Assembly (NCBI GenBank): GCA_963784455.1
Contig: CAWARN010000029.1
Span: 120,868 to 184,867, forward strand
Direction of reading: 5' to 3'
From: an uncultured Acidobacteriota bacterium
GTDB taxonomy: Bacteria > Acidobacteriota > Vicinamibacteria > Vicinamibacterales > Fen-181
DNA length: 64,000 bases
Position numbers and translations under genes: made by a program
Notes under the pieces: generated by a model
The model's database searches: none
Told to the model about the DNA's origin: nothing
The model's input: only the letters and a program-made list of their open reading frames with translations
Shown here: positions 3,811 to 56,337 of the stretch, one piece after another
Numbering within the stretch: the first letter of the stretch is position 1
How the letters are laid out: each line of letters opens with the position of its first letter

Positions 3811-3837
3811 GAACGGAAGCCAGAATTCAGAAGGCGG

Positions 3838-3896
3838 GACAGAGACGCAGAACCGGGAAGGCCGCGCGGATCTTCTCCGTTCTGCGTTTGTCTTTT
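3838..3896 (+). terminator. Stem-loop plus T-run after lpxC (possibly bidirectional, between convergent genes)
   Basis: Left arm 3838-3860 (gacagagacgcagaaccgggaag) pairs with 3872-3892 (cttctccgttctgcgtttgtc) in about 17 of 20 positions. The loop is 11 nt and the stem is followed by TTTT (3893-3896). Confidence 0.55.
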
Positions 3897-4189
3897 CAGG
3901 CGTTCTTCGATCGAGGCTTCTTCTTTCCAGCTGCCAGCTTCTGCATGTAGGTGGCGAGACGTTCGTTCTCGAACCGCACGGTGTTGTGGAAGAGGCTCTC
4001 GGCCAGGTAGTCCCGCCGTTCCTTCCCGGTCATCTGTCCGATCAGATGCCGGATCTCGCGCATCATGTCCTCGTAGGATCGGTCGAGCTCCCGCCTGGCG
4101 GTCACTTCCTGGAAGAGCGTTTCGATGATGGCCAGCAGGTCGCCATCGAGCGCGATGTCAGCGCCGGTCGTCGTCGTAATCCTGCGCAT
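3896..4189 (-). CDS. Hypothetical small soluble protein (97 aa), last gene of the ECF-sigma/STAS operon
   Basis: ORF-track 3896..4189. The start is 2 nt after the STAS stop codon. The protein is helical and charged with a Lys-rich tail (AAGKKKPRSKNA). I recognise no family. Confidence 0.6.
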   Translation of the reverse strand: MRRITTTTGADIALDGDLLAIIETLFQEVTARRELDRSYEDMMREIRHLIGQMTGKERRDYLAESLFHNTVRFENERLATYMQKLAAGKKKPRSKNA

Positions 4190-4191
4190 GG

Positions 4192-4533
4192 CTACCCCCC
4201 GAAGCTTCTAATCGCGCCGGCCTCGTCGGGATGGATTTCCAGGAAGTTCTGGGCGCCGGTCATCGTGAGCATGGTCTCGACGCGCTTCTGAACGCCGCAG
4301 AGCTTCAGCGCGCCCGACGCCGCGCTGGCCTGGCGGTAGAGATCCATGAGACAGCCGATGCTGGCGCTGTCGATGTAGTTCACCGCCGCGAGGTCGATGA
4401 CGACCTTCTTGTCGCCGGCGGTCAGCAGGGACGACACCGAGCCGGCGAAGTCGGAGAGCAGGGGATACATCAGCCGTGCCTCGCCGATGCGAACGAGCGT
4501 GACATCTCCGGTGCGAGCGATGGTGAGGTTCAT
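4192..4533 (-). CDS. STAS-domain anti-sigma-factor antagonist (SpoIIAA/RsbV-like)
   Basis: 113 aa with typical STAS layout: VVIDLAAVNYIDSASIGCLMDLYRQ...GALKLCGVQKRVETMLTMTG. Its ATG overlaps the sigma-factor stop (ATGA at 4530-4533). Confidence 0.85.
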   Translation of the reverse strand: MNLTIARTGDVTLVRIGEARLMYPLLSDFAGSVSSLLTAGDKKVVIDLAAVNYIDSASIGCLMDLYRQASAASGALKLCGVQKRVETMLTMTGAQNFLEIHPDEAGAIRSFGG

Positions 4534-53632: not shown

Positions 53633-54878
53633 GTTCGGCGGCGACCTCTCGGTAGAGAGCCTCCACGCGTTCGACGACGCGATCGGCGGCGAACGTGGCC
53701 TCGACGTGGGCGCGGGCGCCGTCGCCGAGGCGGCGCGCGAGCACCCGATCGGCCACCAGCCGCGCGACGTCGTCACCCAGGCCGTTCGCGCCATTCGACA
53801 GCAGTCCTGTCCGGCCGGGCAGGACGATATCGCGCGTGCCGCCGGTGTCCATCGCAGCGATGGGCACGCCCAGCGCCGAGGCTTCGAGCAGCACGCGGCT
53901 CAGCGACTCCGGCCCGTGCGACGGGAACACGAGCACGGACGCAGCCGCCAGCCAGCCCAGCGCCTGTTCGCGAGGCAGCCAGCCCGTCAGCGTCACGTCG
54001 CGTCCGGAATCGCTCGACCAGCGCTCGATGGTCGGGCGATCAGGCCCGTCACCGACGACAACCAGCGGCAGGCGAAGCGACGCGCGCTCGATGGCGGCCA
54101 GCAGATGCCTGGTTCCCTTGTTGGGCGCGAGCTTGCCCATATAGAGGACGAACGGCGCGCGAGGCGACGGTGCGTGCGCCTCAGCCATGGCGTGAATGGC
54201 CGCGACATCCACGGGGCTTGGAATCGTGAGCAGGCGACGCGGATCGAGCCCGGCAGACCGCGCCTCGAGGTCCCTCGCGATCGTCGAGCTGACGGCAATC
54301 ACCCGGTCCGCGCGCGTGAGGGCATGCTGCTTGCGAGCCAGGTTCGCCCGCATGTAGGGCACCATCGGCAGCGCGAGCGGCCACGCCCCGCCCGCCCTGG
54401 GGCGGATGCAGCGGCGTATCGCCGGCGCGGAGCACGCTGGGCAGAGTGTGTCGGCGGAAGGGTCGTGGATCAGATCCGACCAGTAGCAGACGGGCCAGTA
54501 GTCGCGTATCGTCGCGATCGACGGGATGCCGGCGCGTTCAGCCGCGTCGATCGTCGGGGGAATGGTCATCACGTGCTGGCCGTGCAGAATCTCGGCCTTC
54601 GTGCCGGCAGCCACCTGGCGGAGCACGTTGGCGAGGTCGGCGTACAGGCGCTCGTTCTTCAGGTAGTTCCGAACGAACGGAATGGCGGGCGCGAAGACGC
54701 CAACCTCCCGGACGACGAAGCCGTCATACTCACGCTCGCCGTCGCGGCGTCCCGGGCATGGCTGGACGATCGTCAGCTCGTGGCCGCGAGCGCGGAGACC
54801 GCGCGCCAGCTCGTACGTGCTCCAGCCGCTGCCTCCGCAGCCGGGAGGGAACGAATCGGTGGCGATGACCACTCTCAT
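53625..54878 (-). CDS. Glycosyltransferase family 4
   Basis: MRVVIATDSFPPGCGGSGWSTYELARGL..GHEL.. C-terminal FPSHGPESLSRVLLEASALGVPIAAMDTGGTRDIV. Confidence 0.88.
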   Translation of the reverse strand: MRVVIATDSFPPGCGGSGWSTYELARGLRARGHELTIVQPCPGRRDGEREYDGFVVREVGVFAPAIPFVRNYLKNERLYADLANVLRQVAAGTKAEILHGQHVMTIPPTIDAAERAGIPSIATIRDYWPVCYWSDLIHDPSADTLCPACSAPAIRRCIRPRAGGAWPLALPMVPYMRANLARKQHALTRADRVIAVSSTIARDLEARSAGLDPRRLLTIPSPVDVAAIHAMAEAHAPSPRAPFVLYMGKLAPNKGTRHLLAAIERASLRLPLVVVGDGPDRPTIERWSSDSGRDVTLTGWLPREQALGWLAAASVLVFPSHGPESLSRVLLEASALGVPIAAMDTGGTRDIVLPGRTGLLSNGANGLGDDVARLVADRVLARRLGDGARAHVEATFAADRVVERVEALYREVAAEHA

Positions 54879-56050
54879 GACGGTCGAACCTGCCTCTGAA
54901 CCCGCCGCGCCAGCGCGTGGGCCAGGGCGTCCTCGAGGCGCGTGCAGTGCCCGGCCCAGCTGAACTCGCCGACGGCGCGCGCGCGCGCCGCCGACCCGAG
55001 CCGGAGCCGCAGCTCCCCGTCCGCAAGCCGCTCGAGGGCGGCCGCGAGCGCCCGTGGGTCGGACGGATCATAGAGCAGACCCTCGCTGCCGTCCCCGACG
55101 ATTCGCTTCATTCCGTCGATCGCCGGCGCCACGACGGGCAGGCCTGACGCCATGTACTCGAACACCTTGAGCGGTGACCAGTAGAAGGCGATCGACAGCG
55201 GCGCGTGAGCGGCGACGTCGAACGGTGCGACGCCGATGTCAGCGGCCGCGAGGAGCGCGGGCATCGCGTTGTGGGCGACCGGCCCCGTGAAGATCACGTC
55301 GTCAAGGCCTTCGGCCGCGCGGCGAACGCGCGGCGCTTCCGGGCCGTCGCCGGCGAGCACCGCCGAGATGTTCCCGATGCTCCGCTCGCGGAGCTGTCTG
55401 ATCGCGTCCACCAGGTGCACGGCGCCATGCCACGCGCGGAACGCCCCGGCGAACACGGCGGTCACGGTGCCGGGCTTCCGTTCGAACGGCACGACGCCAG
55501 TGGCTCCTGGACGGAAGCGATCGGTGTCGGCCCCCCACTCGATCTCCACCACGCGCTCGTCCGGCAGCCACGCCGGGAGGATGGCCCGGCTTGGCGAGAG
55601 AATCACATCGGCAGCGCGGCACTGCCAGTCGCGCCATCGCCGCATCGGTTCGACGAGCAGCACGCGGTCCAGCAGGCGCTTGGGCGAGCCGGGGTAGTCG
55701 ACGACCGGTGCGTTGACCTCGAGCACGGAAAGCGCGCCGCAGGCCTGTGCCGCGCGCATGCCTTCGCCGCCGAAGTTGAAGTAGCGTTCCACGACGACGT
55801 CGGGCCGGAGCGCCCGGGCGAGGGTTGCCACGCGGCCCGCGCGGACCAGCCGAAGCCTCGCACTGCCGAGCGGCGGGGCCATCTCGTGCCAGCGAACGGC
55901 GCCGGGCGGGAAGCCGCCGGCTCCGGGTTGGACGAGGACGTGCACCTCGTGCCCCAGTGCGGCCAGGCCCTCGGCCACTGCCTGCACGTGGACGGACCCA
56001 CCCTTCGTCCCGGGCACGGTCTGGTCGATGGCGCAGTACAGAATCCTCAT
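54875..56050 (-). CDS. Glycosyltransferase family 4
   Basis: MRILYCAIDQTVPGTKGGSVHVQAVAEGLAALGHEVHVL.. C-terminal ..SPLKVFEYMASGLPVVAPAIDGM. ATGA overlap with the next GT. Confidence 0.88.
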   Translation of the reverse strand: MRILYCAIDQTVPGTKGGSVHVQAVAEGLAALGHEVHVLVQPGAGGFPPGAVRWHEMAPPLGSARLRLVRAGRVATLARALRPDVVVERYFNFGGEGMRAAQACGALSVLEVNAPVVDYPGSPKRLLDRVLLVEPMRRWRDWQCRAADVILSPSRAILPAWLPDERVVEIEWGADTDRFRPGATGVVPFERKPGTVTAVFAGAFRAWHGAVHLVDAIRQLRERSIGNISAVLAGDGPEAPRVRRAAEGLDDVIFTGPVAHNAMPALLAAADIGVAPFDVAAHAPLSIAFYWSPLKVFEYMASGLPVVAPAIDGMKRIVGDGSEGLLYDPSDPRALAAALERLADGELRLRLGSAARARAVGEFSWAGHCTRLEDALAHALARRVQRQVRPS

Positions 56051-56082
56051 CGCGCCGCCCCACGCCGCCCGGCGGCCGCACG

Positions 56083-56337
56083 AACATCAACCACGGAGGG
56101 CACAAAGGACACAGAGATGAGCGTGCGGAACGGCCCGCGCCACCTGTGGTGGCGCATCAGGCCGGCCGGTGGCGCAGCGGGCGCGAACGCGGCACCGCAC
56201 ATTCGCGCTCGCGCCCGCTGCGTCCCCGGTCGGCCAGCGGGCCTCGCCCGCAGCCGTTCCGCACGCAGGTGCTCCTCGTGCGCGGCCGCCAGTGTGGTGT
56301 CGTCTCCGTGTTCTCCGTGTGCTCTGTGGTTGTTCAT
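56083..56337. repeat. Imperfect inverted repeat (CACRGAG-type arms at 56083-56122 and 56296-56337) flanking a ~175-nt spacer inside the GT cluster
   Basis: The reverse complement of 56301-56337 (atgaacaaccacagagcacacggagaacacggagacg) aligns with 56083-56122 (aacatcaaccacggagggcacaaaggacacagagatgagc) at roughly 70 percent identity by eye, anchored on CAACCAC. Confidence 0.5.

What the first reader, a model, noticed from the sequence alone, without database searches (positions are those of the whole stretch)
3821..56337. Family of intergenic heptanucleotide tandem-repeat arrays (STRR-like) at ten or more loci
Seen: short arrays with strict 7-nt periodicity occupy many spacers.
- GAGAATT-type at 6510-6550, 32041-32092 and 51483-51538, plus the complementary arm at 6647-6680.
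- CAGAATT-type at 3821-3834 and 32937-32992.
- GGGCTCA at 39765-39792 and its complement CTGRGCC at 32124-32144.
- TAGTGGC/CAGTGGC at 17718-17752 with CCCACTG at 17763-17790.
- GGCAGCS at 18438-18470 and 18832-18903.
- CACRGAG at 56083-56122 and 56296-56337.
- GRAAGAC at 6551-6606 and a similar tail at 51545-51575.
The arrays usually start at or within a stop codon and often run to the next gene's ribosome-binding site. Several are A+T-rich islands in a G+C-rich genome, and several occur as inverted pairs able to form long hairpins. Established knowledge: the best-known analogue is the STRR (short tandemly repeated repetitive) heptamer family of heterocystous cyanobacteria, whose function is still unclear. 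I know of no description of such a family in a high-G+C diderm like this one. Inference: they could act as terminators or RNA-stability elements, protein-binding arrays, or slipped-strand contingency spacers.
Basis: partly seen in the sequence, partly recalled or inferred. Interest (0 to 1): 0.65.

Follow-up and report, generated by a model that had tools for sequence, protein, structure and literature searches.

The report
Heptamer tandem repeats between genes
Runs of 7-base repeats really do fill many gaps between housekeeping genes in this high-G+C acidobacterium (Vicinamibacterales) and change quickly between relatives, but they belong to a kind of bacterial repeat already described in Xanthomonas, Burkholderia and cyanobacteria, whose function is still unknown.

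Summary
The core observation holds. The window has period-7 arrays in 8 intergenic spacers, plus one inside a recombinase gene. My scan found 7 period-7 arrays against 0.0 in shuffles and 0-1 for every other period from 4 to 13. Three listed items fail or are weak: 56083-56337 is a long palindrome rather than a heptamer array, 3821-3834 has only two units, and 51545-51575 is weak.

The source is a Vicinamibacterales MAG. Orthologous spacers in relatives lack arrays, carry other units, or differ by whole units, so turnover is fast.

Two architectures exist. Lone purine-rich arrays are unstructured as RNA. Inverted pairs fold into 80-165-nt hairpins without U-tracts.

The phenomenon is specific to unit length, not to sequence. 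GRGAATT arrays occur in more than 120 loci from many phyla, and those loci hold 315 period-7 arrays against 12 or fewer for any other period.

All these traits match the heptameric repeats described in Xanthomonas (GGGAATC), Nostoc and Beggiatoaceae, and the heptamer excess reported by Mrazek et al. 2007. The claim that no such family is known in a high-G+C diderm is therefore wrong.

Best reading: slippage-generated heptamer repeats, filtered by selection. It is a new member of a known, still unexplained kind.

The parts
3821..3834 (+). Weak CAGAATT-like pair (2 units) just after the lpxC stop. It is followed by a non-periodic hairpin at 3836-3895 between convergent genes.
   Evidence: Sequence. 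No TRF hit. Hairpin -35.5 kcal/mol, z -3.2. LpxC identified.
6510..6548 (+). GAGAATT array, 5.7 copies. The TGA stop (6516-6518) of the DAP-decarboxylase-like gene lies inside it, in register with the units. It is the 5' arm of a long hairpin.
   Evidence: TRF; sequence; Pfam; fold.
6545..6607 (+). Degenerate purine-rich GRAAGAC-type heptamer tail that continues the GAGAATT array.
   Evidence: TRF period 7 with 69-70% matches, and period 14 with 77%.
6646..6680 (+). AATTCTC/CATTCTC array, 5.0 copies, complementary to 6510-6548. It is the 3' arm of the 6516-6677 hairpin and ends 12 nt before the tmk ATG.
   Evidence: TRF. Fold -60.2 kcal/mol, z -3.3, 0 of 200 shuffles as stable.
17719..17750 (+). 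CAGTGGC/TAGTGGC array, 4.6 copies. It supplies the last codons and the TAG stop (17732-17734) of trmFO. It is a 5' hairpin arm.
   Evidence: TRF; sequence; Pfam GIDA.
17766..17789 (+). CCCACTG array, 3.4 copies, the 3' arm. The stem shows one mismatch per 7-nt unit.
   Evidence: Fold of 17712-17800: -46.4 kcal/mol, z -4.9, with a periodic bulge pattern.
18438..18468 (+). GGCAGCS array, 4.4 copies, inside a ~100-nt insert in the XerC/D-like gene. The reading frame changes across the insert.
   Evidence: TRF; three-frame translation; alignment to XerD 1A0P shows the insert. It is 88% identical to the array at 18826-18858 (family D4).
18832..18903 (+). GGCAGCG/GGCAGCT array (3.7 copies, 18832-18857) plus its complement. 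Together they form a hairpin between the convergent xerC/D-like and NtrC-like genes.
   Evidence: TRF. Fold -46.7 kcal/mol, z -3.4. Pfam.
32043..32092 (+). GAGAATT/GGGAATT array, 7.1 copies, starting 6 nt after a TAG stop. It is unpaired in the centroid RNA fold.
   Evidence: TRF; sequence; fold. The whole block is absent from the closest relative L125 and replaced by other units in L124.
32123..32144 (+). CCTGGGC/CCTGAGC array, 3.1 copies, the complement of the GGGCTCA family, just before the ribosome-binding site of the FAA-hydrolase gene.
   Evidence: TRF; sequence.
32938..32992 (+). AGAATCC/AGAATTC (CAGAATT-type) array, 5.4 copies, with a degenerate tail. It starts in the TAG stop of the FAA-hydrolase gene and ends at the transaldolase ATG.
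   Evidence: TRF; sequence. Lag-7 self-match 0.77. Unstructured, z +0.8. The orthologous array in L124 shares the first ~23-26 nt and then expands to 131 nt.
39765..39795 (+). GGGCTCA array, 4.4 copies, filling the 43-nt spacer after the TAG stop of gatD.
   Evidence: TRF; sequence. Relative L204 has a non-repetitive spacer here.
51483..51538 (+). GAGAATT/GAGGAATT array, 8 copies (also scored as period 14), starting 2 nt after the TAA stop of bamA. It is unstructured.
   Evidence: TRF; sequence; fold z +0.3; BamA identified.

Best explanation
These are long simple-sequence repeats with a 7-nt unit. They arise and turn over in place through slipped-strand mispairing or unequal exchange. Some still unidentified feature of replication or repair strongly favours 7-nt units. 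Selection then decides where arrays survive. They are excluded from coding sequence, because 7 is not a multiple of 3, and from divergent promoter regions. They accumulate in the only free DNA of a compact genome, the stretch between a stop codon and the next ribosome-binding site or the next convergent gene. In operon spacers the surviving arrays are purine-rich and C-poor on the sense strand. Where two complementary arrays sit in one spacer they form a long hairpin as a by-product.

Shown: the periodicity, the placement, the turnover, the diversity of units and the lineage-specific density. Inferred: slippage as the generator, and selection as the filter. Unknown: why the ruler is 7.
For: Length-specific, not sequence-specific:
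- The window has 7 period-7 arrays against 0.0 in shuffles and 0-1 for the other periods.
- 80 protein-selected relatives (443 kb) have 55 period-7 arrays against 7 or fewer for any other period.
- 120 loci from many phyla have 315 against 12 or fewer. They carry 102 distinct units, or 131 when oriented by strand, with only modest sequence preferences.

Placement fits a selection filter:
- 60 of 62 arrays lie outside called genes, where about 9 would be expected at random.
- In the window, arrays sit in 8 co-directional or convergent spacers and in none of the 4 divergent ones.

In-place turnover at orthologous spacers:
- L125 (94% protein identity) has a 12-nt spacer where the window has 121 nt.
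- L124 (92%) carries GGCTCAG there instead of GAGAATT. Its downstream array shares the first ~23-26 nt with the window's and then grows to 131 nt, against 55 nt.
- L126 and L127 are 99.4% identical, yet one has one GGGATCG unit fewer and one GTGAGCA unit more.
- L133 and L135 differ by 63 nt, which is 9 units.
- L204 carries a shorter version of the L126 array.

Concerted evolution within arrays: the trmFO hairpin has one mismatch per unit, propagated along the arm.

Lineage-specific density: about 9 arrays per 64 kb here, but 0 in 41 kb of L001 and L002, and 0-1 per 16-20 kb in L204, L206 and L207.

Same anatomy as the Xanthomonas GGGAATC repeats, for which reporter and transcriptome work found no regulatory role (PMC4692102).
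Against: - A simple trade-off between slippage and repair should give a broad peak over 6-8 nt. The observed peak at 7 is razor-sharp, so a discrete ruler or binding partner is still missing.
- The same units recur at several unlinked loci in one genome: GAGAATT three times, GGGCTCA twice, GGCAGCS twice. GRGAATT recurs across many phyla. Purely local seeding does not predict this.
- There is a strong strand asymmetry in this clade. Of 35 distinct units that my script classed as lone, 24 are purine-rich on the sense strand and 8 pyrimidine-rich. At least 3 of those 8 are really 3' hairpin arms that the script misclassified.
- Inverted pairs are almost always purine-arm-first.

These points would also fit an RNA-level or protein-level function. 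No read-level or experimental data were available.
Confidence: 0.6

Rival explanations
1. The arrays are RNA-level punctuation elements of operons. Lone purine-rich, C-poor, unstructured arrays keep the untranslated spacer open for ribosome loading or re-initiation (S1 binding or a standby site) and free of Rho-loading sites in a 69% G+C transcriptome. Inverted pairs form hairpins that end or stabilise transcripts at the boundaries of transcription units.
For: - Lone arrays are predicted to be unstructured (z +0.3 and +0.8). Paired arrays fold at -46 to -60 kcal/mol (z -3.3 to -4.9).
- All lone or 5'-arm arrays in the window are purine-rich or neutral on the sense strand. In the clade, 24 distinct units are purine-rich and 8 pyrimidine-rich.
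- Hairpins sit between functionally unrelated genes (lysA-like and tmk; trmFO and xerC/D; xerC/D and ntrC-like). Lone arrays sit inside conserved syntenic operons (Fn3-like, FAA hydrolase and transaldolase; gatE and gatD; bamA and the next gene).
- MacGregor 2015 proposed a translational role for TAACTGA arrays.
Against: - Close relatives do without the arrays at the same spacers.
- Across phyla, GRGAATT arrays show no sense bias (23 sense, 22 antisense). Xanthomonas shows none either.
- The hairpins lack U-tracts and are not scored as terminators.
- Periodic mismatches in the stems argue against selection for pairing.
- The sense-strand purine bias can be inherited from Shine-Dalgarno-like seeds. 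L126, for example, reads TAGGGATCAGGGATCGGGG.
- Most clade arrays flank one orthologous operon, so the counts are not independent.
Confidence: 0.22
2. The arrays are DNA-level binding sites for a protein that reads a 7-bp register. Candidates are a nucleoid-associated protein drawn to A+T-rich islands or a dedicated heptad binder. They would organise or insulate the chromosome locally.
For: - The preference for 7 is sharp.
- GAGAATT arrays are 29% G+C islands in a 69% G+C genome.
- The same unit recurs at unlinked loci.
- An unidentified binding partner has been proposed for Nostoc heptamers (bioRxiv 10.1101/2022.06.06.494920).
Against: - With 102-131 different units, many of them G+C-rich (GGGCTCA, GGCAGCG), no single sequence-specific binder fits.
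- Arrays come and go between close relatives without visible consequence.
- No candidate protein is encoded next to the arrays.
Confidence: 0.08
3. The arrays are contingency (phase-variation) loci, in which changes in unit number switch expression of the neighbouring genes.
For: Unit number and composition do vary between relatives. One array lies inside a recombinase gene, where the reading frame changes.
Against: - The neighbours are housekeeping genes: lpxC, lysA-like, tmk, trmFO, bamA, gatD and transaldolase.
- The arrays lie upstream of the ribosome-binding site. Copy number therefore does not alter the spacing between that site and the start codon, or promoter spacing.
- None lies in a divergent promoter region.
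- Rehm et al. drew the same conclusion for Xanthomonas.
Confidence: 0.04
4. The arrays are REP/REPIN- or MITE-like mobile hairpin elements, or assembly artefacts.
For: Several are intergenic palindromes. The contig probably comes from a long-read assembly that carries frame errors.
Against: - Copies share no flanks or terminal repeats. Each hairpin is built from a different unit.
- Sequencing indel errors do not create a 7-nt periodicity.
- The same kind of array is present in independent short-read and long-read assemblies from many studies, including orthologous positions.
Confidence: 0.02

Closest known systems
GGGAATC heptamer repeats of Xanthomonas campestris and X. axonopodis, and GGGGA(C/T)T repeats of Nostoc PCC 7120 (Rehm et al. 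2015, PMC4692102)
   Same: - Tandem 7-nt units, mostly about 4 copies and up to tens.
- 89-93% intergenic, and close to one flanking ORF.
- Mostly between co-directional genes and rare between divergent ones.
- Frequent 'convergent' inverted pairs that can form stem-loops.
- Strong length and sequence variation between sister species.
- Neighbours from all functional classes.
- Xanthomonas is a high-G+C diderm.
- The units are even similar (GGGAATC against GGGAATT/GAGAATT here).
   Different: - Most units here (GAGAATT, CAGAATT, CAGTGGC) cannot form G-quadruplexes.
- Several unrelated unit families coexist in 64 kb.
- Arrays in this window are all purine-rich on the sense strand, whereas Xanthomonas shows no strand preference.
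- The host is an uncultured Vicinamibacterales (Acidobacteriota).
Heptanucleotide long simple-sequence repeats (Mrazek, Guo and Shah 2007, PNAS 104:8472; read only through its summaries in PMC4679880 and PMC4692102)
   Same: - Heptanucleotides are the most abundant class of repeat in most genomes.
- The excess is phylogenetically scattered. High-G+C Burkholderia and Xanthomonas are among the genomes richest in repeats of 5-11-nt units.
- Repeats whose unit is not a multiple of 3 avoid coding regions.
- The proposed cause is polymerase slippage with a ~7-nt contact length.
   Different: That survey predates Vicinamibacterales genomes. I could not read the paper itself, so the density here could not be compared with its figures.
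STRR (short tandemly repeated repetitive) sequences of heterocystous cyanobacteria (Mazel et al. 1990, recalled from memory; mentioned in PMC4692102 as three heptanucleotides of Calothrix PCC 7601)
   Same: Dispersed intergenic arrays of several heptamer families in one genome. Function unknown.
   Different: Different unit sequences (STRR units CCCCAGT, TTGGTCA and CAACAGT, from memory), a different phylum and a different genome G+C.
TAACTGA direct repeats of marine Beggiatoaceae, cyanobacteria and Bacteroidetes (MacGregor 2015, PMC4679880)
   Same: Short intergenic heptamer arrays of 2-6 copies, with patchy cross-phylum distribution. They lie between genes that include essential ones, and an RNA-level or translational role has been suggested.
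   Different: - That family has a single dominant unit.
- It is anchored a few nt upstream of start codons and overlaps the ribosome-binding site.
- Here the arrays are anchored at the stop codon, leave a separate ribosome-binding site, and use many units.
REP/BIME (REPIN) intergenic palindromes of proteobacteria (from established knowledge)
   Same: Intergenic hairpins at gene ends or inside operons, which could protect mRNA 3' ends.
   Different: REPs are one conserved 20-40-nt palindrome per genome, spread by RAYT transposases. Here each hairpin is made of a different heptamer unit, and the flanks are not conserved.

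Membership tests
Heptameric intergenic simple-sequence repeats (Mrazek 2007; Rehm 2015) | Head-to-tail copies of a 7-nt unit, at least 3-4 copies | tested here: met
   12 arrays of 3.1-8.0 copies by TRF, confirmed in the sequence.
Heptameric intergenic simple-sequence repeats (Mrazek 2007; Rehm 2015) | Over-represented against chance and against other unit lengths | tested here: met
   7 arrays against 0.0 in shuffles, and 0-1 for periods 4-6 and 8-13. 55 against 7 or fewer in relatives. 315 against 12 or fewer across phyla.
Heptameric intergenic simple-sequence repeats (Mrazek 2007; Rehm 2015) | Strong bias to non-coding DNA, and rare between divergent genes | tested here: met
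   60 of 62 arrays lie outside called genes at about 86% coding density. In the window, 8 co-directional or convergent spacers and 0 of 4 divergent ones carry arrays. Across phyla, 10 convergent against 3 divergent. Gene calls are my own crude GC3-based ones.
Heptameric intergenic simple-sequence repeats (Mrazek 2007; Rehm 2015) | Length and sequence variation between closely related genomes | tested here: met
   Window against L124 and L125. L126 against L127, and L133 against L135 (63 nt = 9 units). L204.
Heptameric intergenic simple-sequence repeats (Mrazek 2007; Rehm 2015) | Convergent inverted pairs able to form stem-loops | tested here: met
   Three pairs in the window, at -46 to -60 kcal/mol and z -3.3 to -4.9. 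The same occurs in L021, L077, L091 and L121.
G-quadruplex-forming GGGAATC/GGGGAYT subfamily (Rehm 2015) | At least four G3 tracts per array | tested here: not met
   GAGAATT, CAGAATT, CAGTGGC and GGCAGCS units lack G3 tracts. Only 39765-39795 (GGGCTCA) has them, with one 11-nt loop.
Cyanobacterial STRR | Unit sequences STRR1-3 (CCCCAGT, TTGGTCA, CAACAGT; from memory) in heterocystous cyanobacteria | tested here: not met
   The units here are different. The homologues named by a source are Vicinamibacterales.
TAACTGA repeats (MacGregor 2015) | Unit TAACTGA, directly upstream of the start codon and overlapping the ribosome-binding site | tested here: not met
   No TAACTGA array was found. Arrays abut the stop codon, and a separate GGAG-like site follows them.
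REP/REPIN mobile palindromes | One conserved palindrome family with many near-identical copies, and an associated RAYT gene | tested here: not met
   The hairpins are built from different units and share no flanks. No transposase-like gene was seen among the genes scanned. The rest of the genome was not available.
Intrinsic (Rho-independent) terminators | G+C-rich hairpin followed by a U-tract | tested here: not met
   The hairpins are present, but no T-run follows 6680, 17793 or 18903. None is reported by the terminator scan. Only the non-periodic hairpin 3836-3895 sits next to a T-rich stretch (gtcttttcag), and the scan did not call it either.
Phase-variable contingency loci | Repeat within a promoter, a 5' UTR spacing element or the 5' coding region of surface or virulence genes | tested here: not met
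   The arrays lie between a stop codon and the next ribosome-binding site of housekeeping genes.
Known structured RNA families (Rfam 15) | Covariance-model match at the gathering score | tested here: not met
   No match anywhere in the window. No tRNA or tmRNA.

The most novel reading that the evidence does not exclude
In this Vicinamibacterales lineage the heptamer arrays would have been co-opted as a genome-wide operon punctuation system that acts on RNA. Sense-strand purine-rich, C-poor AGAA-N3-type arrays would keep untranslated spacers single-stranded and invisible to Rho, so that downstream genes in a 69% G+C transcript are still translated. Purine-arm-first inverted pairs would mark the ends of transcription units. 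The sharp 7-nt ruler would reflect a dedicated protein partner rather than polymerase slippage alone.
Probability: 0.12. Interest if true: 0.7.

Novelty: new member of a known kind. Interest (0 to 1): 0.35.

Why it matters
Heptamer arrays are among the most widespread unexplained sequence features of bacterial genomes. Nobody knows why the unit is 7 nt or whether the arrays do anything.

This window adds an unusually dense, multi-family example from an uncultured soil and sediment phylum. No paper in the searchable library links that phylum to such repeats.

The comparison set shows three useful things:
- Sharp length specificity across many phyla.
- Recurrence of one unit class, GRGAATT, in more than 120 loci from A+T-rich and G+C-rich genomes alike.
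- Unit-wise turnover at orthologous spacers.

On the practical side, the arrays inflate operon spacers, can supply stop codons, and can disrupt genes (the XerC/D-like case). They are hot spots for assembly and annotation errors in MAGs. They do not amount to a new kind of system.

Tried and rejected
1. Promoter idea. A perfect TTGAGAA array contains TTGAGA-N17-GAGAAT, which resembles a sigma-70 promoter. None of the + strand arrays in the window passes the promoter scan, because their variant units break it. Only the minus-strand reading of 6650-6678 does. Rejected.

2. Intrinsic terminators. No U-tracts follow the hairpins and the scan makes no calls there.

3. Known RNA families and tRNA-linked elements. 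None found.

4. Polar growth with degenerate 3' tails. In-register similarity of the 5' and 3' flanks to the unit does not differ significantly (p = 0.09 and 0.11, in opposite directions). Rejected.

5. Association of arrays with TAG stop codons. TAG is common in the whole window (24 of 56 stops), so 5 of 7 is not remarkable.

6. A single shared motif. CAG, AAT/ATT, GGG and GAA are only modestly enriched among 131 units.

7. General sense-strand bias of GRGAATT across phyla. The counts are 23 sense and 22 antisense.

8. The purine-strand 5' end lies nearer to genes than the 3' end (median 23 against 95 nt, p = 0.006). This agrees with Rehm 2015. However, my ORF calling can create the effect, because stop codons are T-purine-purine. 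I left it open.

9. Primase-site idea (CAG and TAG are complements of CTG and CTA). The GC skew suggests the purine-rich strand is the lagging-strand template, which is the wrong strand for this. Not pursued.

10. Exact look-ups of window proteins, tried in order to fetch the rest of the contig, failed.

11. Mrazek 2007 could not be opened.

Full report
**Source and setting**

The window is about 69% G+C. Homologues of its FAA-hydrolase gene are named Vicinamibacterales (Acidobacteriota) where a source gives a name. The window's own protein is on record from a single 188-kb contig. The genes around the arrays are housekeeping genes: uvrA, lpxC, a DAP-decarboxylase-like gene, tmk, topA, trmFO, xerC/D-like, ntrC-like, an ABC-F ATPase, an FAA hydrolase, transaldolase, gatE/gatD and bamA. 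Rfam and ARAGORN find nothing in the window.

Tandem Repeats Finder reports period-7 arrays at these positions:
- 6510-6548, 6545-6607 (degenerate) and 6646-6680
- 17719-17750 and 17766-17789
- 18438-18468 and 18832-18857
- 32043-32092, 32123-32144 and 32938-32975
- 39765-39795
- 51483-51538

A lag-match scan of my own gave 7 arrays of period 7 and 2 of period 14. Twenty dinucleotide-preserving shuffles gave 0.0, and periods 4-6 and 8-13 gave 0-1 each. In eight spacers the lag-7 self-match is 0.41-0.77, against roughly 0.2-0.35 for other lags.

Several listed items do not hold:
- 56083-56122 and 56296-56337 are the outer arms of a ~250-nt nested palindrome. The only tandem signal there has period 9.
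- 3821-3834 has two units only.
- 51545-51575 gives no signal.
- 18438-18470 lies inside a gene.

**Anatomy**

Arrays start 0-5 nt after a stop codon or contain it. The TGA at 6516-6518 is in register with the TGAGAAT units. The TAG at 17732-17734 lies inside the CAGTGGC/TAGTGGC array. The TAG at 32937-32939 begins the AGAATCC array. The arrays run up to a separate GGAG-like ribosome-binding site.

They occupy co-directional (6) or convergent (2) spacers and none of the four divergent spacers.

Two architectures exist:
- Lone arrays (32043, 32938, 39765, 51483) are purine-rich on the sense strand. The A+T-rich ones (32043-32092, 32938-32992, 51483-51538) are predicted to be essentially unstructured as RNA, with z +0.3 and +0.8 for two whole spacers. 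The G+C-rich GGGCTCA array forms only a modest local hairpin (-17.6 kcal/mol, z -1.4).
- Inverted pairs form long hairpins: 6516-6677 at -60.2 kcal/mol (z -3.3); 17715-17793 at -46.4 (z -4.9); 18832-18902 at -46.7 (z -3.4). None is followed by a T-run, and none is called by the terminator scan.

The trmFO hairpin has one mismatch per 7-nt unit, repeated along the stem. That is what independent homogenisation of each arm would produce. Selection for pairing would not.

**Relatives**

Fetching the FAA-hydrolase locus from public assemblies shows conserved synteny but very different spacers.
- L001 (88% protein identity) and L002 (77%) have no period-7 array in 41 kb. Their spacers here are 12-54 nt of unique sequence.
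- The metagenome scan returned 80 related loci totalling 443 kb. They hold 55 period-7 arrays, against 7 or fewer for any other period between 4 and 12.
- Many of these arrays flank the same gene but use other units, such as AGAAGAC, CAGTAGC, AGAAGCA and GGGATCA.
- The closest relative, L125 (94%), has a 12-nt upstream spacer where the window has 121 nt.
- L124 (92%) has GGCTCAG units in that spacer. Its downstream array shares its first ~23-26 nt with the window's and then expands to 131 nt, against 55 nt.
- L126 and L127 are 99.4% identical over 6.6 kb, yet differ by the loss of one unit and the gain of another.
- L133 and L135 differ by 63 nt, which is 9 units.
- L204 carries a shorter version of the L126 array and has no array after gatD.

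With my GC3-based gene calls, 60 of 62 arrays in this clade lie outside genes, although about 86% of the DNA is coding. About 9 would be expected at random.

Density is lineage-specific. The window has about 9 arrays per 64 kb. L204, L206 and L207 have 0-1 per 16-20 kb.

**Breadth**

I estimate about 2 chance matches from simple arithmetic that assumes equal base frequencies.

The hits come from Cyanobacteria, Bacteroidota, Acidobacteriota (Blastocatellia, Thermoanaerobaculia and unclassified), Chloroflexota, Planctomycetota, Verrucomicrobiota, Methylomirabilota, Xanthomonas, Desulfonema and others. Genome G+C in these loci reaches up to 69%.

Those loci contain 315 period-7 arrays, against 12 or fewer for each other period. 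They carry 102 distinct units. Among 131 strand-oriented units there are only modest sequence preferences. The phenomenon therefore depends on unit length, not on a motif.

In other high-G+C genomes, GAGAATT often forms perfect inverted pairs, purine arm first (L021, L077, L091, L121). In another Acidobacteriota MAG (L033) the arrays again start exactly at TAG stops and fill the spacer.

**What is known**

Rehm et al. 2015 describe about 185 GGGAATC arrays in each of two Xanthomonas genomes. Their features are as follows (PMC4692102):
- 89-93% are intergenic.
- They lie on average 28 nt from the 5'-neighbouring ORF and 160 nt from the other.
- Most lie between co-directional genes, 16% between convergent and 7-8% between divergent genes.
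- There are 70-75 'convergent' inverted pairs.
- Length and sequence vary extensively between the two species.
- Most are transcribed.
- No regulatory role was found.

Mrazek et al. 2007, as summarised in PMC4679880 and PMC4692102, found that heptanucleotides were the most abundant repeat class in most genomes. High-G+C Burkholderia and Xanthomonas were among the genomes richest in repeats of 5-11-nt units. They proposed polymerase slippage with a ~7-nt contact.

MacGregor 2015 described TAACTGA arrays and suggested a translational role. A Nostoc preprint reports mild effects of heptamer arrays on reporters and postulates an unknown binding partner.

I found no paper that links Acidobacteria with heptamer repeats. 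The window is therefore a new host lineage for a known kind of element. It is not the first case in a high-G+C diderm.

**Mechanism**

The best-supported account is generation and turnover of arrays in place by slipped-strand events, with a strong and unexplained preference for 7-nt units, followed by a selection filter. Four observations support it: the length specificity, the variety of units, the unit-wise differences at orthologous spacers, and the periodic stem mismatches.

The placement fits what is tolerated. Arrays are excluded from coding sequence and divergent promoter regions, and they sit between a stop codon and the next ribosome-binding site.

The sense-strand purine bias has two possible sources. 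By my script's classification, 24 distinct 'lone' units are purine-rich and 8 pyrimidine-rich, and at least 3 of the 8 are really 3' arms.
- It could be inherited from Shine-Dalgarno-like seeds next to the stop codon. L126, for example, reads TAGGGATCAGGGATCGGGG.
- It could come from selection against C-rich or structured untranslated spacers.

I could not separate these, because nearly all informative genes lie on one strand and most clade arrays flank one operon.

Three things remain unexplained: the sharpness of the preference for 7, the recurrence of the same unit at unlinked loci, and the purine-arm-first polarity of pairs. They keep an RNA-level or protein-partner model alive, at roughly 0.2-0.3 combined probability.

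**Limits**

- Gene calls are my own crude ones.
- The clade arrays are not independent.
- No reads, expression data or whole genome were available.
- The apparent frame changes in tmk and the xerC/D-like gene, and the fragmented genes in L206, suggest long-read assembly errors. Exact copy numbers should be treated with care.

Noticed in passing
window 56076-56340 (minus strand): A ~250-nt nested imperfect palindrome lies between a glycosyltransferase gene and a methyltransferase gene. As RNA it folds at -172.6 kcal/mol with z = -9.4 against shuffles. Rfam gives no match beyond generic hairpin-like hits far below threshold. It is not a heptamer array and no other copy was seen in the window.
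   Followed up: partly
window 17811-18822: The XerC/D-like recombinase changes reading frame. The N-terminal part is in frame 0 up to about 18430, and the C-terminal part is in frame 2 from about 18545 to the stop at 18820-18822. The change falls across a ~100-nt insert, relative to E. coli XerD, that contains the GGCAGCS heptamer array. That array is 88% identical to the one 390 nt downstream. This is either a gene disrupted by an array or an assembly indel.
   Followed up: partly
window 6693-7287: The thymidylate kinase gene changes frame near 6945-6960 with no repeat there. Together with the fragmented genes in related long-read contigs (L206), this points to indel errors in the assembly.
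   Followed up: partly
window 36553-39764; also L001 and L204: A GatE-like (GatB_N) gene is followed by a GatD gene (GatD_N plus asparaginase domains). This is the archaeal-type Glu-tRNA(Gln) amidotransferase pair, conserved in this bacterial clade.
   Followed up: no
window 21818-22009 and 15678-15772: Two coding tandem repeats are unrelated to the heptamers. One has period 15/30/60 in the linker of an ABC-F ATPase gene (minus strand). The other has period 9/18/34 in the C-terminal tail of topA.
   Followed up: no
loci L004-L123 (genome-contig scan): GRGAATT x3 arrays occur in more than 120 loci from at least ten phyla, from about 30% to 69% G+C, and often as perfect inverted pairs in high-G+C genomes.
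   Followed up: partly
window 2690-2979: The 290-nt spacer upstream of lpxC contains a ~45-nt very A+T-rich stretch (ttgctttaagtataactataataatgatttataagtc) with no 7-nt periodicity. It may be a promoter or regulatory region.
   Followed up: no
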